This document shows, piece by piece, positions 1 through 20,912 of a DNA stretch of 64,000 bases. The stretch comes from a virus (taxonomy: Duplodnaviria; Caudoviricetes): the IMG/VR virus record IMGVR_UViG_3300021375_000006; one strand, given 5' to 3'. The notes beneath the pieces were generated by a model. The model saw only the letters and a list, made by a program, of their open reading frames with translations. It did not search any database and was not told the DNA's origin. Position numbers and translations under genes: made by a program. How positions within the stretch are numbered: position 1 is the stretch's first letter; each line of letters begins with the position of its first letter.

Positions 1-425
1 TTTGCCATGTACAGGTTAACAATATCTTTACTTGTCATACCGATAGAAATTGCAAAGTTCATATAGAAATGCAAACCATCAATCCATTCATAGAATAATT
101 CTAATTTATCAGCTTCAGAAAGATCTTCGATCTTCATTTCGGCTGCTTGAGCATTAGTACTCTTCCAGTATTTCCATGCACCTGAGGCAATACCGTCGTT
201 GATACCTCCAAGGGCATCAAACATTTCATTTAATTCGTCTGACATTGCGTGTTTATTTACACACCAAAAGTCTGCGATTTGTTTTAAGTTCCAACCTGTA
301 AAGTCGAAACCTAAACGCTTTTGTAGTTCCACTTGCTTATTATAGATTAAGCCAAGTGTGTCTTCCGCTTCTGAATGAAAGTCTTGGACTTCCAAATCTG
401 CACATTTGTTATCTGCGTTCGCCAT
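1..425 (-). CDS. All-alpha NTP pyrophosphohydrolase (dimeric dUTPase / T4 gp56 dCTPase-like), truncated by the window edge
   Basis: Not in the ORF track; translated by hand from the ATG at 425: MANADNKCADLEVQDF...DELNEMFDALGG...WKYWK...ELFYEWIDGLHFYMNFAISIGMTSKDIVNLYMAK. The E-x-x-E...WKxWK...E-x-x-D pattern fits this family. A promoter lies at 442-470. Confidence 0.75.
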   Translation of the reverse strand, partial: MANADNKCADLEVQDFHSEAEDTLGLIYNKQVELQKRLGFDFTGWNLKQIADFWCVNKHAMSDELNEMFDALGGINDGIASGAWKYWKSTNAQAAEMKIEDLSEADKLELFYEWIDGLHFYMNFAISIGMTSKDIVNLYMA

Positions 426-441
426 ATATTTTTATTTAATT

Positions 442-470
442 GTTATAGTTAGATTTACTTATCTGTTTCA
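442..470 (-). promoter_or_regulatory. Class-2 promoter TGAAAC-N17-TATAAC
   Basis: Lies 17 nt upstream of the NTP pyrophosphatase ATG. Confidence 0.65.
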
Positions 471-1351
471 AGTATTTCGCCCCAAGCTCTTTCGGACTTT
501 GTTAACGATTTTGTGTTAATATCTTTTGGTTTTGGATCTCCACCTACATTCCAGAACCAGGCACCAGGAGATCCATGTTTAGTCATGAACTCCCAAGCTT
601 TAGCATCGTAGTTCATAGCCGATGGGAATGGTGGATTATACTGTGGGTCTACATCTTGTGTAAATGCTTTTGGATGAGACCATATAGTTGCATTACCTCT
701 TTCACCCTTCTTGATATTTCTTGCTACTGCAACTGCGTTAAACTTAGCGTCAGGCCAAGCTATTTGTAAAGAGCGTTGTAGAACTCCCGTAGAGATCGCT
801 GACCATACTTCTTCTGGATAACCATATTTCTCTGCAAGATCGTGCGCGACCTTCACAGCGGCTGCTGTAACCAATTCATGGCGAAGTCCTAAAGGAATAA
901 AAAATGCTCCGTTATCTTCTGCCCATTTCTTAGCATGAGCATTTAAGACTGGCATTGCTGCGATTCTCTTGAATTTCATTTCAGCTCCCATCTCAACACA
1001 AATTGCCTGATGGTCTGAAATCTCTTTTTGACTTGGACTAAATAGTACAAGTTTCTTATTATACTTATTTGCTAGGTATGCAAGTGAGATACCTGCAAAT
1101 CCATATCTAGGTTGAACATAGACTAGAGTATCTTGTTTACAAGTACTAACTAGAATATCTCCAAATCTACACTTAGAACCAAAACCCATTAGGTCTTCTC
1201 TGACTACTTTAAATCCATCATGGTCTACTAATTGTGGAGCCTCAAATGGATCTTGCCAATCACCTGCTAAATCCAACCATGCCTGTTTATTCGGCATCAT
1301 CAGATTTAGATCCTGGTTCATAAGTATATCTGTGTGTTTATTATGCGCCAT
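455..1351 (-). CDS. PLP-dependent enzyme, fold type II (TrpB/cysteine synthase/ACC deaminase-like)
   Basis: GSKCRFG (candidate Schiff-base Lys), SAISTGVL phosphate loop, YDAKAW and C-terminal WNVGG. Overlaps the stop of the upstream gene. Confidence 0.75.
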   Translation of the reverse strand: MAHNKHTDILMNQDLNLMMPNKQAWLDLAGDWQDPFEAPQLVDHDGFKVVREDLMGFGSKCRFGDILVSTCKQDTLVYVQPRYGFAGISLAYLANKYNKKLVLFSPSQKEISDHQAICVEMGAEMKFKRIAAMPVLNAHAKKWAEDNGAFFIPLGLRHELVTAAAVKVAHDLAEKYGYPEEVWSAISTGVLQRSLQIAWPDAKFNAVAVARNIKKGERGNATIWSHPKAFTQDVDPQYNPPFPSAMNYDAKAWEFMTKHGSPGAWFWNVGGDPKPKDINTKSLTKSERAWGEILETDK

Positions 1352-2570
1352 AAAATTCTGCTACTTTTTTCTTATATGCTTCTACTGTTAAACCAGCTTC
1401 TGCAATTATTTTATCATCACTAGGATGGTGTTTCATTCCGTTAAATGTTTCTACTAGACCTAAGTCTAACATTGCCTTTTGTCTACCGAATGGATGGTCT
1501 TTAATTACTGAAGAATTCCATACGCCGTCCATATCAATATGTGCATAGTCAGCTCCTGGTCTCATGTAATTCTCAATCCATCTAATAAAGTCACATGCTA
1601 CGTCCTCTGCATTATACGGCAGAGAACCTGTCTGTTCATATATTTTTGTCATCACTGCATCTAGGAAAGGTTCTGATTTTTTACCTTTACCTTCTACGGG
1701 ATCTGCAAGGTAACCAATACATTCTATTGCATTCGTACCATAGTAGAACATTGATTCCCTGTTAACATACTGTGGAAACCAATCTGCTATATCTGCTAAA
1801 ACTGCTGCATATTGGAATTTATATTGTCTTAATCCGTTTGCAACATTCCAATCAAACATCCATTGACCCAATTCTCTTAGGTCTTTCTTACCACCCTCTT
1901 CTAAGAACTTAGCCATGTCTCTAGCTAAGCGTGGTGCGAATTCACATAGGAAATAGTCGCCGCCTCTCTTGTAAGTAAACTGAGGGCCTTCGAACCCCGT
2001 CATCCCAACAAAGACTTCCTCGTTTTGCTGTGGAATCGGGGGTTTTGGGAAAGCTGGGAATTGATACCCAACAGAAGTGTAGAATGACTTGGTTGCTGCT
2101 TTCACTTGCTCACACATTTGTTCTATAGAATCAGATTGCCACAAGTCGAATAGTAGCGTGTTGTGATAGCCACTTGGTTTAGTAGCATAGTTAATTGCAG
2201 ATCCACATACTCTGTGCAGGATGAATATGTAGAGCCATTCTGGTAGGCCGAAGACTTCTTGTTTACCGGTCCAATTGGTAGCGACATCTTTGCGCTGTTC
2301 CGTAACTAAACCAGCCTGCATTCTTGACCAATACGGATGTGCTTCAGTCCAACCGTAAAAAACATCATTCACGATTTGACTAAACCCAGCATACTTCCTT
2401 TCAACCACATCATACAGCTCGATATGTTCCATCAGCGGATCGTCCATCCCGGACTCGGCATGTGGAATGTGGCCTAGGTTACTCTTTTTCTGCTGGTCTA
2501 AGGCTAACTCATAATACCTGATAAACTCATCATAGTATTTAGTAGTCTTAATTTTACACGTCGTACTCAT
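1341..2570 (-). CDS. aGPT-PPlase / amino acid:DNA transferase-like helical protein (thymine hypermodification family)
   Basis: Motifs LYDVVERKYAG, FQYAAVLADIADWFP, YYGTNAIECI and NAEDVACDFIRW resemble the HhH-glycosylase-like aGPT-PPlase clades. It is adjacent to a PLP enzyme, as in known hypermodification clusters. Confidence 0.6.
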   Translation of the reverse strand: MSTTCKIKTTKYYDEFIRYYELALDQQKKSNLGHIPHAESGMDDPLMEHIELYDVVERKYAGFSQIVNDVFYGWTEAHPYWSRMQAGLVTEQRKDVATNWTGKQEVFGLPEWLYIFILHRVCGSAINYATKPSGYHNTLLFDLWQSDSIEQMCEQVKAATKSFYTSVGYQFPAFPKPPIPQQNEEVFVGMTGFEGPQFTYKRGGDYFLCEFAPRLARDMAKFLEEGGKKDLRELGQWMFDWNVANGLRQYKFQYAAVLADIADWFPQYVNRESMFYYGTNAIECIGYLADPVEGKGKKSEPFLDAVMTKIYEQTGSLPYNAEDVACDFIRWIENYMRPGADYAHIDMDGVWNSSVIKDHPFGRQKAMLDLGLVETFNGMKHHPSDDKIIAEAGLTVEAYKKKVAEFYGA

Positions 2571-2736
2571 TCACTTCTAGTATTTCCCAATTTAAGGCTC
2601 TCCGGTTTCTTTGATATTGTTCCATCGACCATTCAATATTGTCTGTTGTCAACTCAATAGTATATGGAGCATCTCCGCGACCGTAAGTTTTTTCTATTGC
2701 AAGATTAGGTGTTATTTTAATTTTATATGTTTTCAT
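2554..2736 (-). CDS. Hypothetical protein, 60 aa
   Basis: ORF track; overlaps both neighbours in the operon. Confidence 0.6.
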   Translation of the reverse strand: MKTYKIKITPNLAIEKTYGRGDAPYTIELTTDNIEWSMEQYQRNRRALNWEILEVNEYDV

Positions 2737-2919: not shown

Positions 2920-3084
2920 TTAATTATTCCATCTTCTTAAGATATTCCAAACAATTAATATATTACAAATTACAGCCTGTAATACAATAAGAGTCCTAAA
3001 TATCGCAACAGCATCTGCTTGTTTATCGTCCTCTCCGGCTTTTTCACCAAGCGCTCTTGCCCAGTACTTCCAAAGCTTTTTCAT
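2920..3084 (-). CDS. Small membrane protein, 54 aa (MKKLWKYWARALGEKAGEDDKQADAVAIFRTLIVLQAVICNILIVWNILRRWNN)
   Basis: Found by hand. Has one hydrophobic helix, and the WxxALGEKAG...AD.vA.fRT pattern resembles a small protein common in aquatic T4-like phages. Confidence 0.65.
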   Translation of the reverse strand: MKKLWKYWARALGEKAGEDDKQADAVAIFRTLIVLQAVICNILIVWNILRRWNN

Positions 3085-3085
3085 T

Positions 3086-4162
3086 TTAGAAAAGTGCTTG
3101 AGTTACTGGCTTTAATTTCTGATTGGGTTCATCTTTTACTAAATCCCAACGATAATACTCACGAGCGATATGAACTGACTTAGGCTTTTCCATTACGTCA
3201 AATGTTAACTCTCCAAAAGAGTTTAAAAAGACTGCTGGGTGTTGCCATGTTAACCATCCATTTCTCTCGCACATTGCTTCTACTAACTTGTTAAATTCTT
3301 TTACAAGTTCAGTTCTCTCTGCCCAAGTACCAGCAAAAGGAGTACCTTTATAGTAGCCGGTTTTTGGTAGAGGTCTAGACTCATTCTCAATTGGAAGAGC
3401 CTGAATAACTTCAATATTTTCGATTTCTAAATCGATTAATTGTTTTTCATAATTAGATACCATATCCTTTAAAGATTTCGATGGATTATCTTGTCTCATT
3501 AGGTGGTGTCTTATATCTATATTCCCTAGATATATGCGTAGTGTTGTAATATTTTCTGGTACATAAGATCTAATACCTCTTCTTAAAGTTCCAAAAAGAG
3601 TTAGGCCATCATGTCTATCAGTCATGTAGCCGGGTGTATATTGGCTAAAACTATGTGAGTCTCCAAAACAGAGTTTATCTGTATTTTGTATTCTATCTAC
3701 TTTAGGAATACTAGCACATATTGCCTTAGCTTCTTCTATTTGTGTCTCAAGTGTTTTAAAAAGATCTGAACCTGTCTTTAAACGTTTCTCAATTAGAGTA
3801 CCTACACAAGGCATATCATGGTGGAGCGAATACATTCGTATACCGGGAGCGAACATTCTAATGATTTGATGGTATAAGTCATCGTTCGCCCCACCGAAGA
3901 TATTAAAATTGCCTTTAAATTCCATTCCGTGTTCAATAAGAATCACGTCGAAATCGTCTGCCTTCCAAGCTGAGTTATCTGTAATTATAGAAACATTGGA
4001 GTAACCAGCATGTTTTAATTGATTTGCTAGATGGAATGCCCATCCAGATTTATGTGAAGTTAGTTTGCTACTAAGTTTTCCAACTAGTGCAGAAATACCG
4101 ACACGTATATTAGTGTCTTTCTCTAGATCTGTAAAATAGACTAGGTTATTATTTGTCTCCAT
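3086..4162 (-). CDS. Two-domain protein: T4 beta-glucosyltransferase-like N-terminal domain fused to an SGNH/GDSL-hydrolase-like domain
   Basis: N-half DFDVILIEH...FNIFGG...MYSLHHDMP recalls T4 BGT (DYDRLIVVN...INFFGG...IYYLFTDIRLP). C-half has FGDSHS, LGNIDIR and KPKSVH, matching SGNH blocks I, III and V. Confidence 0.5.
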   Translation of the reverse strand: METNNNLVYFTDLEKDTNIRVGISALVGKLSSKLTSHKSGWAFHLANQLKHAGYSNVSIITDNSAWKADDFDVILIEHGMEFKGNFNIFGGANDDLYHQIIRMFAPGIRMYSLHHDMPCVGTLIEKRLKTGSDLFKTLETQIEEAKAICASIPKVDRIQNTDKLCFGDSHSFSQYTPGYMTDRHDGLTLFGTLRRGIRSYVPENITTLRIYLGNIDIRHHLMRQDNPSKSLKDMVSNYEKQLIDLEIENIEVIQALPIENESRPLPKTGYYKGTPFAGTWAERTELVKEFNKLVEAMCERNGWLTWQHPAVFLNSFGELTFDVMEKPKSVHIAREYYRWDLVKDEPNQKLKPVTQALF

Positions 4163-4481
4163 ATCCAGCGTCTGCGTCAGTTAAATTAATTGGCTTTTCA
4201 GTTTCACCATAGCCATACTTCTTAATATAATTGTCAAGACCGCCGATGTATGCGACGGCATCTAGAAGATTATCTTCTTTATAGTTGTAAGAATGTCTGC
4301 TTAATTTAAGTGCGACAAGTGCTGCATACATATCGGAACCTGACCATTCTTTACCGGTCATTCCTGAACAGATCATCGCGGCACGTCTCATGCCTTCTTC
4401 GAAAGGACCGTACATACGTTCTTTCTCTTCGGATCTGTTGTTAATAATTTCGTCTGCTGTTTTTAGAATGTTCTTGCTCAT
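4149..4481 (-). CDS. DUF6378-like / dNTP diphosphohydrolase-like helical protein
   Basis: ILKTADEIINNR...RMYGPFEE...LVALKLSR...DNLLDAVAYI pattern; promoter at 4506-4534. Confidence 0.6.
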   Translation of the reverse strand: MSKNILKTADEIINNRSEEKERMYGPFEEGMRRAAMICSGMTGKEWSGSDMYAALVALKLSRHSYNYKEDNLLDAVAYIGGLDNYIKKYGYGETEKPINLTDADAGYGDK

Positions 4482-4534: not shown

Positions 4535-5218
4535 CTAATTAATATTAATATGGATAATAACTTCGTTGTAGTATTCTAGGAAACGTTCGTTCCATAGGTT
4601 CCATTTAATATCAGTACCATCTATTGCATAAATTTCATGGTTAGGGAAAAGTTTAAGATATAAATCTCTAAAATGTCTGAATTTTTCTTTAGACTCTGGT
4701 GTGTTTAGATGCCACTCTCCGACTACAAAATCTACATTATCTTTTATCCAAAATAAATTATCGACGTTAAAAATATCATATTCTCCTCCTTCGCAATCTG
4801 TTTTTAAGAAGTTAATTCTATCAATATTATTTTCTTTTATTAGGGTATCGAACCTAATAGATGGTATTTCTATATTTTGTCCATTAGCACCAAATACTTC
4901 ACTAATAGTAATAGTACCATCTACTGGTCCGATACCCTTTTCAATAATGGTTACATTATCTTGGTATACATTTTCCTTTAGAGTCTCATGTTCTAAATGA
5001 GATGGCTCTACGCAAATAACTTGTTTTGGATCTTTATTAAGAATACTATATGTAAATGGACCGATGCTTGCTCCTATATCTAAAACAACATCATCGGCTT
5101 TTACCTCTCTAACCTGTTCATAACATTTATCAATAAAGATCTCTTGAACTAAAGAGTTTTTATGCATTTTAGCTAGATTGGTAAATTCGTCCATCCAGCC
5201 CCACTTAAAAATAGCCAT
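4535..5218 (-). CDS. FkbM-family SAM-dependent methyltransferase
   Basis: VVLDIGASIG (SAM-binding motif I), CVEPS, and FLKTDCEGGEYDI (FkbM KxDxEGxE). Confidence 0.85.
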   Translation of the reverse strand: MAIFKWGWMDEFTNLAKMHKNSLVQEIFIDKCYEQVREVKADDVVLDIGASIGPFTYSILNKDPKQVICVEPSHLEHETLKENVYQDNVTIIEKGIGPVDGTITISEVFGANGQNIEIPSIRFDTLIKENNIDRINFLKTDCEGGEYDIFNVDNLFWIKDNVDFVVGEWHLNTPESKEKFRHFRDLYLKLFPNHEIYAIDGTDIKWNLWNERFLEYYNEVIIHININ

Positions 5219-5240: not shown

Positions 5241-5269
5241 GTTATACTCAAGAATGCTAGTTTGTTTCT
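5241..5269 (-). promoter_or_regulatory. Class-2 promoter AGAAAC-N17-TATAAC
   Basis: Upstream of the FkbM start at 5218; near-duplicate of 4506-4534. Confidence 0.7.
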
Positions 5270-5945
5270 AGAGTTCGTAGATAACCGGGACTCCATTTTC
5301 AATACAAAGATACTCATAAGGAAGTGTATCAATAAAATAGTGGTTATCATCATAGTCAATTTGATGCATGTGTGTATGTCCAGCGATTTGAATAATAGTA
5401 TCATCAAGAGGATTACGTCTTAGTGCTTCAGGTCTAATCCACATTGGACCTTCACCATCATAATTACCATACATTTCCATACCGCTATGATTAAATGATC
5501 TTTTATCATAAGACCAAAGATCATTAATCTGTTCTGAAATATTACCATCTTCTGGGAAATTGGCTTTATACCATTCTTTCGAAACACCAGCATGTGTAAA
5601 TAAAAACTTATCTACTTGATATGCAACTTGTAAGTGGTGCTTATTTTCTCTTAATAGTTCACTAATTTCAGCTGCGTGCCAAGCACTCCAACCACCATAC
5701 CTTCCTCCACAATCTGCCATGTAATGGAAATCATGGTTACCAATCAACATAGTTACTTTAATCTTTGACGCTTCTTTCCACTCAATGATTTCTTTAAAAT
5801 TAAAAATACACTCCGCATGGTTTCTAGTAAAAGAATCAAAGTAATCTCCGATGAATACAAATTCAGTCGCATCGCCATGTGCCTGCATAACTTGCTTCCA
5901 CTTGTTACAGCCATGAATATCTCCGATAACTACAATCTTACTCAT
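5268..5945 (-). CDS. Calcineurin-like metallophosphoesterase
   Basis: GDIHG, GDYFD, GNHD, THAG and GHTH metal-binding motifs. Confidence 0.9.
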   Translation of the reverse strand: MSKIVVIGDIHGCNKWKQVMQAHGDATEFVFIGDYFDSFTRNHAECIFNFKEIIEWKEASKIKVTMLIGNHDFHYMADCGGRYGGWSAWHAAEISELLRENKHHLQVAYQVDKFLFTHAGVSKEWYKANFPEDGNISEQINDLWSYDKRSFNHSGMEMYGNYDGEGPMWIRPEALRRNPLDDTIIQIAGHTHMHQIDYDDNHYFIDTLPYEYLCIENGVPVIYEL

Positions 5946-19220: not shown

Positions 19221-20130
19221 TCAAGAAAGAATCTAAATCATCATCCGTATTGGCCTTCGCTGGTTCTTCAGTCTTAGTTGCTGTTGCTGTTGCAGCGGCT
19301 ACTGGAGTTGCTTCTCTCTGTGGCTCTGCCTTTGGAGCAGCTTTTGTAGCCGGAGTTGAAGTTACCTCTGCGATAGAATCACCTGGATTTAGATACATTC
19401 TTAGAACGTTATTTACGAATGCTCTTGTGTCTTCGTCCCACGCCTTATAGTCATAAGTTGCAAGTGAAGGAGCGTCTTCTAGTTCTGCTTTAATCGCCGT
19501 CATAGTTTCTTGAGATCTTTCCGCTGGAGCGTCTCCCATTACGATAGCTGATGTGTTAGCTGAGAATTTCGACTTATCATAGTTATTATATTCACCTTGT
19601 CTTGTGATAACTAACTCAAAGTTCTTACCTTCGAAAAGGTCGAATACTTGTGTTGGCTCACCGAAATCAGGCTTCAATTCTGAGTCAATTTTCTCTTTGA
19701 TCTTGTAACCAAACTTGAATACTTTGTAAGTACCCTCTAGTTCTGGGTTTTGTGGATCTTTAATAATTTTGATAAGAGAATAATACTGTTGGCGTCTCTT
19801 TAGTTTCTCAGAAGACTTTCTGTCTACTGCTGAATCTGACTTTCTCAATTTCCAGAATACATCTGCAATTGGACAGTGCTCGCCGACTGTTTGTGGAGAG
19901 TCCACTAGTTTTCCATCTCCATTAGAGTTAGTTAACCAGTGTACGTACTTTTGAATCAGAGATTTTCTTGGGTTCTCTGGGTTTGGAACAAAACGCACTA
20001 GTGCTTTGTAAGTTCCGTCTTTGCCGTCATCGGCGGTTGGTTTGTAAACTTCGTTTACGCTTGTTCTTTCAGGCTGGTGTGTTTCCACATCTTCCACGCC
20101 TAAATTAAAAATGTCAAATGAATCACTCAT
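19204..20130 (-). CDS. gp32: Single-stranded DNA-binding protein (T4 gp32-like)
   Basis: ALVRFVP, CPIAD, YYSLIKIIKDP.NPELEG..KVFKFG.KI, FDLFEG.NF, NYDKSKF; acidic tail DDLDSFLNDL. Confidence 0.92.
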   Translation of the reverse strand: MSDSFDIFNLGVEDVETHQPERTSVNEVYKPTADDGKDGTYKALVRFVPNPENPRKSLIQKYVHWLTNSNGDGKLVDSPQTVGEHCPIADVFWKLRKSDSAVDRKSSEKLKRRQQYYSLIKIIKDPQNPELEGTYKVFKFGYKIKEKIDSELKPDFGEPTQVFDLFEGKNFELVITRQGEYNNYDKSKFSANTSAIVMGDAPAERSQETMTAIKAELEDAPSLATYDYKAWDEDTRAFVNNVLRMYLNPGDSIAEVTSTPATKAAPKAEPQREATPVAAATATATKTEEPAKANTDDDLDSFLNDLNL

Positions 20131-20189
20131 AACTTTTAAAATTGTTTAATTGTTTAATACTTGAAATTACTTTAATGTCCTTTCGTTAC

Positions 20190-20219
20190 CTTATAGTTGT
20201 ACAATATACAATAGTTTCA
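20190..20219 (-). promoter_or_regulatory. Class-2 promoter TGAAAC-N18-TATAAG upstream of gp32
   Basis: Direct motif match 60 nt upstream of the ATG at 20130. Confidence 0.65.
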
Positions 20220-20411
20220 ATCTAGTGTCAAAATAGCTGGACGGCGCCCAGACCTTGGGTCTGCAGGCAATTCCTTCCAGGTCCCGTCCTCTTGCTTAAT
20301 CAGCCCTGATTTGTGTAGCAACTCCTCACGTTCTTGCGAAGTGATTGCGTTGGCTTCCACCATTTGTTTGAGAATCTCATTGAGACGGAAGTAGTCCGCT
20401 GTTATCAACAT
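20217..20411 (-). CDS. Hypothetical protein, 64 aa
   Basis: ORF track; preceded by overlapping class-2 (20440-20468) and class-3 (20442-20449) motifs. Confidence 0.6.
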   Translation of the reverse strand: MLITADYFRLNEILKQMVEANAITSQEREELLHKSGLIKQEDGTWKELPADPRSGRRPAILTLD

Positions 20412-20504
20412 GTCAATTGTACTTTTGTTTATTATACATATTATATATCTGAATTTAGATTTGTTTCTTCATAATATGTTAATAACTTTTTTGCAAAAAA
20501 ATGC

Positions 20505-20570
20505 AAAATAATTGCAAAAAAGGTTTCACATGTCATATTTTTTTCGTATATTAGTACTGTAATTAAAAAC
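20505..20570 (+). promoter_or_regulatory. Class-1 (putative early) promoter element, copy 2
   Basis: AAAATAATTGC(20505)...TGTCA(20531)-N11-TATATTAGTACTGTAATTAAAAAC, about 10 nt before the ATG at 20580. Confidence 0.8.
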
Positions 20571-20579
20571 ATATAAAAC

Positions 20580-20912
20580 ATGAGTAATCCACACTACGAA
20601 CACCAATTAAAATTAGACGCTATGAAGAAACATACTAAATTATCGTCGAGAAACAAAACCCTTCTTTTAATGGGGGCTAAGACCACTGGAAGCTTTCTAG
20701 AGGGTTATTATTATATAGAGGAAAGTTTATACATCGATGAGGCTAACTCGCTTCATTCGTTCTGTACGTGGATTGATGACCACATCGGTGGCGCAGGTCC
20801 AGTTAATATTGATATGTTATGGCTAGGGTTTAAATACCCTGAAGTAGACAGATACTCTAGAGCCTGTGTAGATATTAAGAAACAAATGGACGAAATTAAA
20901 GCATACTGTTAA
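20580..20912 (+). CDS. Hypothetical early protein, 110 aa
   Basis: ORF directly downstream of the class-1 promoter. Confidence 0.7.
   Translation: MSNPHYEHQLKLDAMKKHTKLSSRNKTLLLMGAKTTGSFLEGYYYIEESLYIDEANSLHSFCTWIDDHIGGAGPVNIDMLWLGFKYPEVDRYSRACVDIKKQMDEIKAYC

What the first reader, a model, noticed from the sequence alone, without database searches (positions are those of the whole stretch)
3086..4162. T4 beta-glucosyltransferase-like N-domain fused to an SGNH hydrolase domain in place of the sugar-donor domain
SEEN: residues about 18-120 align by eye with the T4 BGT N-terminal (DNA-acceptor) Rossmann domain, including the FN(I/F)FGG loop. The C-half instead carries SGNH motifs (GDSH, GNID, KSVH). 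INFERENCE: this could be a DNA base acyltransferase or esterase that reuses BGT's base-flipping domain, transferring an acyl group rather than glucose. I do not know of this architecture being described.
Basis: inference. Interest (0 to 1): 0.72.

Follow-up and report, generated by a model that had tools for sequence, protein, structure and literature searches.

The report
Hybrid phage enzyme for DNA modification
This phage gene joins the DNA-binding half of T4's DNA-glucosylating enzyme to an esterase/acyltransferase-type catalytic half, and its fixed gene partners suggest it helps build an unknown chemical decoration on hydroxymethylcytosine in phage DNA.

Summary

The family is large, viral and unannotated. 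It sits in a conserved cassette with DUF6378, a helical protein of the 5-hmdU-kinase-helical/aGPT-Pplase type, dCTPase/dUTPase genes and tailoring enzymes. In at least nine 50%-identity representative proteins it is fused to that helical protein. Thymidylate-synthase homologues linked to the cassette carry the published signature of 5-hydroxymethyl-dCMP synthases. I found no P-loop DNA kinase.

Best reading (inferred, untested): a DNA-directed acyl-enzyme acts on the hydroxyl of 5hmC and takes the place of the kinase step of thymidine hypermodification.

Aeromonas phages 44RR, 31 and 25 have genes 42 and 56 but no glucosyltransferase. They carry this domain pair fused to the helical domain, so the idea can be tested in culture.

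The scan had already noted a similar "kinase-less hmC cassette" on other DNA.

The parts
3086..4162 (-). Gene for the 358-aa two-domain protein (BGT-like N-domain plus SGNH domain)
   Evidence: ORF. AlphaFold2 model has pLDDT 95.9. The family has 961 clusters at 90% identity and 409 representatives at 50% identity, all unnamed. PHROG 13881/17781 'unknown function', E about 1e-56.
3776..4114 (-). N-domain, residues 17-129, homologous to T4 beta-glucosyltransferase residues 1-118 (the DNA-acceptor side of the GT-B fold)
3890..3904 (-). N-I-F-G-G loop (N87, G90, G91), aligned with BGT N70, G73, G74
   Evidence: N70, G73 and G74 are invariant in 33 BGT homologues. In this family N87 is in 99/107 sequences, G90 in 88/107 and G91 in 95/107. 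Alignment.
4052..4057 (-). S36-H37, the other two near-invariant N-domain residues, at the end of the long loop between the first strand and the first long helix
   Evidence: S36 is in 99/107 and H37 in 104/107 sequences. Secondary structure. Their role as part of a composite active site is inference only.
3113..3685 (-). SGNH hydrolase-fold domain, residues 160-350
3653..3664 (-). Block I G-D-S-H, directly after the first strand of the domain; Ser169 is the presumed nucleophile
   Evidence: G167 in 105/107, D168 in 107/107, S169 in 106/107 (the other is Thr), H170 in 107/107. Position after strand 163-167.
3503..3526 (-). Block III-like G-N-I-D-I-R-H-H after strand 207-211; the basic residues are specific to this family
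   Evidence: G213 in 103, N214 in 94, D216 in 107, R218 in 107, H219 in 99 and H220 in 104 of 107 sequences.
3170..3178 (-). Block V-like S-V-H; His331 is the presumed general base, and invariant E325 lies six residues upstream
   Evidence: S329 in 101, H331 in 105 and E325 in 107 of 107 sequences.
4149..4481 (-). DUF6378 gene; its stop overlaps the target's start by 14 nt
   Evidence: Pfam DUF6378 E 1.4e-9. Found directly upstream of the target in 74-75 of 80 viral loci. Overlap read.
1341..2570 (-). 409-aa helical partner, probably of the HMUDK_hel/AADT/aGPT-Pplase superfamily
   Evidence: Found about 1.2 kb downstream of the target in 60/80 loci. Fused to the C-terminus of the target domain in P0156, P0250, P0126, P0150, P0166, P0196 and P0216, hmmsearch E 3.9e-13 to 2.9e-102. 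Its nearest named Atlas clusters carry HMUDK_hel, ADDT or aGPT-Pplase3, scores 0.90-0.99. Pfam itself does not hit it.
455..1351 (-). Fold-type II PLP enzyme (threonine dehydratase/cysteine synthase-like)
   Evidence: Pfam PALP E 5.5e-6, PHROG 7093 E 1.2e-41. Present in 42/80 loci.
3..425 (-). T4 gp56-like dCTPase/dUTPase; the gene runs off the window
   Evidence: tblastn with T4 gp56, E 4e-15. PHROG 173 NTP pyrophosphohydrolase.
4535..5218 (-). FkbM-family methyltransferase
   Evidence: Pfam Methyltransf_21 E 2.3e-12 and TIGR01444 E 5.4e-19. Fused to HMUDK_hel plus the target domain in P0139. It sits elsewhere in the cassette in relatives.

Best explanation
The protein is a two-domain enzyme that works on phage DNA, probably on the hydroxyl of 5-hydroxymethylcytosine (5hmC).

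Shown: its N-domain descends from the acceptor (DNA) domain of T4 beta-glucosyltransferase. It keeps that family's invariant Asn-x-x-Gly-Gly loop but not its catalytic Thr-Asp. Its C-domain is an SGNH fold with a conserved Ser169/His331 pair. The gene always travels with, and is often fused to, a helical protein of the 5-hmdU-DNA-kinase-helical/aGPT-Pplase type. The cassette is tied to 5hm-dCMP-synthase-type and dCTPase/dUTPase genes, and I found no P-loop DNA kinase.

Inferred: the BGT-like domain presents the 5-CH2OH of a 5hmC in DNA to the cleft between the two domains. Ser169 carries an acyl group taken from an ester or thioester donor, and that acyl group is passed to the hydroxymethyl oxygen. 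The resulting 5-acyloxymethylcytosine is either the final mark or, more likely, an activated intermediate. In the second case the carboxylate leaves and the helical aGPT-Pplase-like partner installs a nucleophile. That nucleophile would be supplied or reshaped by the variable PLP enzyme or inositol-1-phosphate-synthase-like enzyme and by the FkbM methyltransferase. The SGNH module would then do the job that the 5-HMUDK kinase does in thymidine hypermodification. Textbook metabolism has the same alternative: O-acetyl- or O-succinyl-homoserine serves in place of O-phospho-homoserine as an activated hydroxyl.
For: Architecture.

Catalytic residues: S169 in 106/107, H331 in 105/107 and N214 in 94/107 sequences. 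D168, H170, D216, R218, R263, R283 and E325 are in all 107. The motifs sit at the canonical loop positions after strands 1 and 3 and near the C-terminus. The many invariant Arg and His residues suit an anionic substrate such as DNA or a CoA-type donor (inference).

Coupling to the helical protein: seven 50%-identity representative proteins fuse the target to the window's 409-aa family. 44RR ORF233c/P0177 and P0139 fuse it to the Pfam-positive HMUDK_hel family, E 9e-81 and 2e-112 against a profile of cassette members. 60/80 loci carry the 409-aa family and 17/80 carry the HMUDK_hel family just downstream.

Which base: cassette-linked thymidylate-synthase homologues all have the three residues that PMC13326640 gives for T4-type 5hm-dCMP synthases. 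In ThyA numbering these are L143D, D169 kept and N177D. True TS genes in the same genomes have L, D and N. A gp56 homologue lies in the window.

No kinase: no conserved neighbour family has a real Walker A motif. HMUDK_hel matches only once in the complete 293-kb genome G002 and once in 44RR, each time in the cassette protein itself.

Known chemistry of the partner family: phosphate leaves from C5-CH2-O-P and an amine attacks the exocyclic methylene (PMC8989533).

Aeromonas phages 44RR, 31 and 25 have genes 42 and 56 but no glucosyltransferase (PMC2993671; own check with a T4 positive control).

Against: The SGNH motifs are atypical: G-N-x-D instead of G-x-N-D, and no Asp three residues before the His. 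Pfam GDSL scores are below threshold. SGNH folds cannot be sorted into transferases and hydrolases by sequence. No acyl donor is indicated by the gene context.

The window's 409-aa partner is tied to aGPT-Pplase only through language-model features and its position in the cassette. Pfam and hhalign do not connect it to the HMUDK_hel family.

A hydroxymethylase gene was not seen in the window. The window's own genome is not held, so the 5hmC link rests on relatives.
Confidence: 0.5

Rival explanations
1. Same pathway, opposite direction. The SGNH domain is a hydrolase (esterase or deacylase) that trims an ester-linked group. This could be an O-acyl or O-aminoacyl intermediate on the modified base, or a protecting group on the donor. 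It does not transfer an acyl group onto DNA.
For: Most structural neighbours are esterases, for example sialate O-acetylesterase, acetyl-xylan esterases and PAF acetylhydrolase. The Ser/His pair is conserved. The context evidence for DNA hypermodification fits this reading equally well.
Confidence: 0.2
2. The enzyme is not DNA-directed. The BGT-like domain has been re-used to bind a sugar, cyclitol, nucleotide or other small-molecule precursor, and the SGNH domain acylates or deacylates that precursor before the helical transferase puts it on DNA. It could also act on a host envelope glycan.
For: The BGT catalytic base is lost. The structural likeness to BGT is modest. Relatives sit next to an inositol-1-phosphate-synthase-like gene or a Na+/solute symporter (44RR), which points to a sugar-like or cyclitol-like building block. 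FkbM methyltransferases usually O-methylate sugars or polyketides (general knowledge).
Against: What the N-domain kept from BGT is the N-x-x-G-G loop that is invariant in DNA glucosyltransferases. Fusion is to the DNA-side helical domain, in the same N-to-C order as kinase plus helical domain in 5-HMUDK-type proteins such as SP10 gp186. I saw no hydrophobic signal-peptide-like stretch in the N-terminal sequence (read by eye, no predictor run). The gene lies among early replication and nucleotide genes.
Confidence: 0.12
3. The SGNH domain is catalytically silent and serves as a nucleic-acid-binding scaffold, like the OSK domain of Drosophila Oskar. It would help the helical transferase hold DNA.
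Against: In a silent SGNH domain the catalytic residues would be free to drift. Here Ser169, His331 and the GDS motif are kept in 105-107 of 107 sequences that are only 27-61% identical.
Confidence: 0.05
4. It is simply a divergent GT-B DNA glycosyltransferase whose C-domain was misread.
For: The N-domain is homologous to BGT.
Confidence: 0.02

Closest known systems
T4 beta-glucosyltransferase (BGT; Pfam PF09198; PDB 1c3j and related)
   Same: The N-terminal Rossmann-like domain is homologous (hhalign 97.8%). The invariant Asn-x-x-Gly-Gly loop is shared. Both belong to T4-type phages that carry a gp42-type 5hm-dCMP synthase and a gp56-type dCTPase.
   Different: There is no GT-B donor domain and there are no UDP-binding residues. 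BGT's catalytic Thr99-Asp100 falls in an alignment gap. No family member reaches the Pfam threshold. The catalytic half is an SGNH fold.
SGNH/GDSL esterases and O-acetyltransferases (for example sialate O-acetylesterase 7pzg, peptidoglycan O-acetyltransferases PatB 7tjb and OatA 6vjp)
   Different: Known members act on glycans, lipids or small esters, not on DNA bases. Here Block III reads G-N-x-D, the Asp of DxxH is missing, and there is a family-specific set of invariant residues: H170, D216, R218, H219, H220, R223, R263, R283 and E325. The domain is welded to a BGT-type domain.
5-hmdU DNA kinase (5-HMUDK) of phages M6, ViI, PhiW-14 and SP10
   Same: It holds the same place in the pathway logic: a catalytic module that travels with, or is fused N-terminally to, an HMUDK_hel/aGPT-Pplase-type helical domain, next to PLP and other tailoring enzymes.
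   Different: 5-HMUDK is a P-loop kinase that phosphorylates 5hmU using ATP. This protein has no Walker A motif, has an SGNH fold, and is linked to 5hm-dCMP-synthase-type genes, so cytosine rather than uracil. The analogy is functional and inferred; the two are not homologous.
Thymidine hypermodification clusters (aGPT-Pplase/AADT plus PLP enzyme; PMC8989533)
   Same: A helical DNA transferase-type protein, a PLP enzyme, nucleotide-pool enzymes and a thymidylate-synthase homologue are grouped near the DNA polymerase.
   Different: There is no kinase. The base is probably 5hmC. Extra constant members are the BGT-like/SGNH protein and DUF6378. Alternative tailoring enzymes are an inositol-1-phosphate-synthase-like protein and an FkbM methyltransferase.

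Membership tests
T4 beta-glucosyltransferase family (PF09198, GT-B) | N-terminal Rossmann-like acceptor domain with the invariant Asn70-x-x-Gly73-Gly74 loop | tested here: met
   hhalign 97.8%, E 7.7e-13, with controls negative. N87 is in 99/107, G90 in 88/107 and G91 in 95/107 sequences. BGT invariants.
T4 beta-glucosyltransferase family (PF09198, GT-B) | Catalytic Thr99-Asp100 after the fourth strand of the N-domain | tested here: not met
   This pair falls in a 4-residue gap of the profile alignment. In the neighbouring columns Asp is found in only 42/107 (position 114) and 16/107 (position 116) sequences.
T4 beta-glucosyltransferase family (PF09198, GT-B) | C-terminal GT-B donor domain with UDP-binding Arg191, Arg195, Arg269 and Glu272 | tested here: not met
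   The C-half is an SGNH fold. The full-length profile aligns to BGT only in the N-domain.
T4 beta-glucosyltransferase family (PF09198, GT-B) | Score above the Pfam gathering threshold (27 bits) | tested here: not met
   The window protein gives no hit. Three of 107 relatives give weak hits, best E 0.024.
SGNH hydrolase superfamily | Three-layer alpha/beta/alpha fold with five parallel strands | tested here: met
SGNH hydrolase superfamily | Block I Gly-Asp-Ser with the nucleophilic Ser after strand 1 | tested here: met
   G167 in 105, D168 in 107 and S169 in 106 of 107 sequences. The motif follows strand 163-167.
SGNH hydrolase superfamily | Block II Gly and Block III Gly-x-Asn-Asp (oxyanion hole) | tested here: inconclusive
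   G186 is in 74/107 and G191 in 90/107 sequences. Block III reads G213-N214-I215-D216, so the Asn is one position early; N214 is in 94/107. No coordinates were available to check the geometry.
SGNH hydrolase superfamily | Block V Asp-x-x-His | tested here: inconclusive
   His331 is in 105/107 sequences, but the residue three before it is Lys, Arg or Gln. Invariant Glu325 might supply the acid. Ser-His dyads are known in this superfamily (general knowledge).
SGNH hydrolase superfamily | Score above the Pfam Lipase_GDSL gathering threshold | tested here: not met
   12 bits against 23.6 for the window protein. Best relative: Lipase_GDSL_2, E 2.1e-4.
5-hmdU DNA kinase (5-HMUDK) | P-loop (Walker A) kinase domain | tested here: not met
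   There is no Walker A motif in the target family. The only G-x4-G-K-S/T strings in neighbours are unconserved and not in a P-loop setting.

The most novel reading that the evidence does not exclude
The SGNH half O-acylates 5-hydroxymethylcytosine in double-stranded phage DNA, held by a domain inherited from beta-glucosyltransferase. The ester is the leaving group for an aGPT-Pplase-type transferase. This would be the first DNA-base O-acyltransferase. It would also be the first kinase-independent route of 5-hydroxymethylpyrimidine hypermodification and the first aGPT-Pplase-type hypermodification of cytosine. It would further name the enzyme that modifies hmC in Aeromonas phages 44RR, 31 and 25 and in many marine T4-like phages.
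Probability: 0.3. Interest if true: 0.85.

Novelty: new variant of a known kind. Interest (0 to 1): 0.72.

Why it matters
Phage DNA hypermodifications decide the outcome of restriction, CRISPR and glycosylase defences, and they have given useful enzymes such as BGT and 5-HMUDK. All characterised aGPT-Pplase pathways start from 5hmU and need a DNA kinase.

This family points to a widespread cassette with a different design. It appears in more than 590 IMG/VR loci and 409 clusters at 50% identity. It is tied to 5hmC, lacks the kinase, and instead carries a chimera of a DNA-glucosyltransferase domain and an acyl-enzyme domain.

It also offers a concrete candidate for a question left open in 2010: what modifies hmC in Aeromonas phages 44RR, 31 and 25, which have genes 42 and 56 but no glucosyltransferase? 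Those phages are cultured, so the prediction can be tested directly.

Tried and rejected
- Sequence searches of the PDB with the protein and with the family profile found nothing useful. BLASTP against T4 BGT found nothing.
- Foldseek of the isolated N-domain against the PDB gave no hit below 1e-3, only generic CheY/TIR-like folds.
- Complex prediction of the target with the 409-aa neighbour returned 'no answer'. I do not count it for or against binding.
- I tried to link the window's 409-aa protein to HMUDK_hel by sequence. Pfam on 30 members gave no hit, the Pfam model on three related genomes gave no hit, and hhalign against the Pfam-positive cassette family gave probability 0.4%. A profile search of the PDB gave only spurious TPR matches. 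Its best 120 sequence relatives carry no Pfam annotation. The link therefore rests on Atlas features and on equivalent position and fusion.
- The window's own genome is not held, and the nearest record is a 31-kb fragment without a TS homologue. Five further related contigs, 17-44% complete, had no gp42-like match, which is uninformative.
- Walker A pattern matches in some cassette helical proteins proved spurious.
- I considered the possibility that the TS homologues are 5-hydroxy-dCMP synthases, as in RB69, and rejected it on the published D169N signature.
- Literature searches combining SGNH with hypermodification or hm-bases found no description.
- Model coordinates are not exposed, so I could not measure distances between the N-domain conserved residues and the Ser/His site.

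Full report
**The gene.** The ORF at 3086-4162 on the minus strand encodes 358 aa. It lies in a tightly packed minus-strand block:
- a gp56-like dCTPase/dUTPase at 3-425 (tblastn with T4 gp56, E 4e-15);
- a fold-type II PLP enzyme at 455-1351;
- a 409-aa protein at 1341-2570;
- three small ORFs;
- the target;
- DUF6378 at 4149-4481, whose stop overlaps the target's start by 14 nt;
- an FkbM methyltransferase at 4535-5218;
- a metallophosphatase at 5268-5945.

Pfam gives the target only a sub-threshold GDSL hit. PHROGs place it in two families of unknown function. The family is large and unnamed: 961 clusters at 90% identity, 409 at 50%, and at least 593 loci in IMG/VR.

The decisive test was profile against profile. 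The N-half family against 33 BGT homologues gives probability 97.8%, E 7.7e-13, over 104 columns. The reversed profile and 20 shuffled profiles score at most 20 against 84.8. N87, G90 and G91 align with N70, G73 and G74, which are invariant in BGTs. BGT's invariant Thr99-Asp100 falls in a gap. The full-length profile aligns with BGT only in this domain.

The two-domain fold recurs only in viral clusters of the ESM Atlas.

**Context.** In 80 IMG/VR loci the neighbourhood is fixed.
- Window-like loci (52-88% identity) read DUF6378, target, small ORF, 409-aa protein, PLP enzyme, gp56-like.
- More distant loci (39-46% identity) read thymidylate-synthase homologue, DUF6378, dUTPase, target, inositol-1-phosphate-synthase-like, FkbM methyltransferase, a 133-aa ORF, and a protein that passes Pfam HMUDK_hel.

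Fusions tie the pieces together.
- Seven 50%-identity representative proteins join the target to the window's 409-aa family, E 3.9e-13 to 2.9e-102.
- Aeromonas phage 44RR ORF233c (795 aa) joins it to the HMUDK_hel family, E 9e-81.
- P0139 (981 aa) is FkbM plus HMUDK_hel plus target, and sits next to a thymidylate-synthase homologue.

The 409-aa protein itself is connected to HMUDK_hel/ADDT/aGPT-Pplase only by Atlas features and by its equivalent position. Pfam and hhalign do not connect it.

**Which base.** All cassette-linked thymidylate-synthase homologues share a three-residue signature with T4 gp42. These include the ones in 44RR and in a 71%-identity relative of the window phage. In ThyA numbering the signature is Asp at L143, Asp kept at D169 and Asp at N177. 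Bona fide TS genes in the same genomes have Leu, Asp and Asn. PMC13326640 gives N177D as the dCMP-specificity residue, L143D/E as the hydroxymethyl signature and D169N as the mark of 5-hydroxy-dCMP synthases. By these criteria the genes are 5hm-dCMP synthases. The target base is therefore probably 5hmC, not 5hmU or 5hoC.

**No kinase.** Known aGPT-Pplase pathways need a P-loop kinase, 5-HMUDK, to make the phosphate leaving group (PMC8989533). Among conserved neighbours here, none has a genuine Walker A motif. HMUDK_hel matches only the cassette protein itself in the complete genome G002 and in 44RR.

**Mechanism (inferred).** The one constant enzyme beside the helical partner is this chimera. 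It occupies the place the kinase domain holds in kinase-plus-helical proteins such as SP10 gp186. I therefore propose three steps:
1. The BGT-derived domain presents the 5-CH2OH of 5hmC.
2. Ser169 passes an acyl group to that hydroxyl.
3. The ester either stays as the mark or, more likely, is displaced by a nucleophile under the helical transferase.

The variable PLP enzyme or inositol-phosphate-synthase-like enzyme, and the FkbM methyltransferase, would shape the appended group. Acyl esters replacing phosphate esters as activated hydroxyls is ordinary biochemistry (O-acetyl- or O-succinyl-homoserine in place of O-phospho-homoserine).

Rivals, in order of weight: an esterase step in the same pathway; action on a small-molecule precursor; a silent scaffold; a misread glycosyltransferase (excluded). 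None of the chemistry was tested.

**Cultured models.** Petrov et al. (PMC2993671) noted that Aeromonas phages 44RR, 31 and 25 carry genes 42 and 56 but no glucosyltransferase. I confirmed genes 42 and 56 in 44RR, and the absence of a PF09198 match with T4 as the positive control. These phages, with Stenotrophomonas phage IME13 and relatives, are the only isolates in the phage collection that carry the two-domain form of the family; Tenacibaculum phages PTm1/PTm5 match only its C-half. ORF233c is therefore the obvious candidate for their unknown hmC chemistry.

**Earlier notes of this scan.** They had flagged the same operon in this genome. They also flagged a 'kinase-less hydroxymethylcytosine cassette' in another marine T4-like phage, and a true BGT fused to DUF6378 elsewhere. 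I used these as leads only. I re-derived the kinase-less and hmC points independently here. I did not check the BGT-DUF6378 fusion, or the gp42-like gene said to lie beyond this window.

**Novelty.** No paper in the searchable library links SGNH enzymes to hm-base or hypermodification chemistry. I rate this a new variant of a known kind: phage 5-hydroxymethylpyrimidine hypermodification with a new catalytic module and a new base. The architecture and context are solid; the chemistry is inferred.

Noticed in passing
L001:4468-5991 (Aeromonas phage 44RR, ORF234c): A Na+/solute symporter gene (SSF family, annotated as similar to the Na+/glucose cotransporter) lies directly upstream of the 795-aa target-plus-HMUDK_hel fusion. 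Distant cassettes have an inositol-1-phosphate-synthase-like gene right after the target instead. Both hint at a sugar-like or cyclitol-like building block.
   Followed up: partly
L082:14837-16986 (complete 293-kb IMG/VR genome G002): Directly after the cassette's HMUDK_hel gene come a C5-cytosine DNA methyltransferase (Pfam E 3e-19) and an NAD-dependent sugar epimerase/dehydratase (E 3e-48). This suggests further DNA or sugar chemistry in that lineage.
   Followed up: no
window 4535-5218; L100:13814-14395; L008:3326-4024: The FkbM methyltransferase stays in the cassette but moves around. It lies upstream of DUF6378 in the window, after the gp56-like gene in an 83%-identity relative, after the inositol-phosphate-synthase-like gene in distant loci, and is fused in P0139.
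   Followed up: partly
window 2554-2736, 2733-2909, 2920-3084: Of the three small ORFs between the target and the 409-aa gene, only the 60-aa one (2554-2736) has tblastn matches, in 38/80 related loci. The 58-aa and 54-aa ORFs have none. They may be fast-evolving or not genes at all.
   Followed up: partly
L051:3352-4458, L040:12571-13629 and about 36 other loci: Many window-like cassettes carry an extra gene of about 350-370 aa, with no Pfam match, inserted between the helical protein and the PLP enzyme. It is absent from the window.
   Followed up: partly
L100:14386-15792 and 19675-20883; L099:5997-8718: In an 83%-identity relative, the family B DNA polymerase next to the cassette is split into two genes, with nrdB, nrdA and another gene between them. 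Aeromonas phage 44RR also has a split gene 43. The split polymerase and this cassette travel together in both lineages.
   Followed up: no
L002:5608-6627 (Tenacibaculum phage PTm1 gp050): A 339-aa protein lying between ribonucleotide reductase genes matches only the SGNH half of the target (residues 138-337, 34% identity). Its N-terminal part is different, so the SGNH module also occurs without the BGT-like domain.
   Followed up: no
L098, L040, L004 (gp42-like genes): Cassette-linked 5hm-dCMP-synthase-type proteins fall into two motif groups at the specificity site: R/C-N-D as in T4, and T-F/Y-D. Whether this reflects a different substrate or product is unknown.
   Followed up: no
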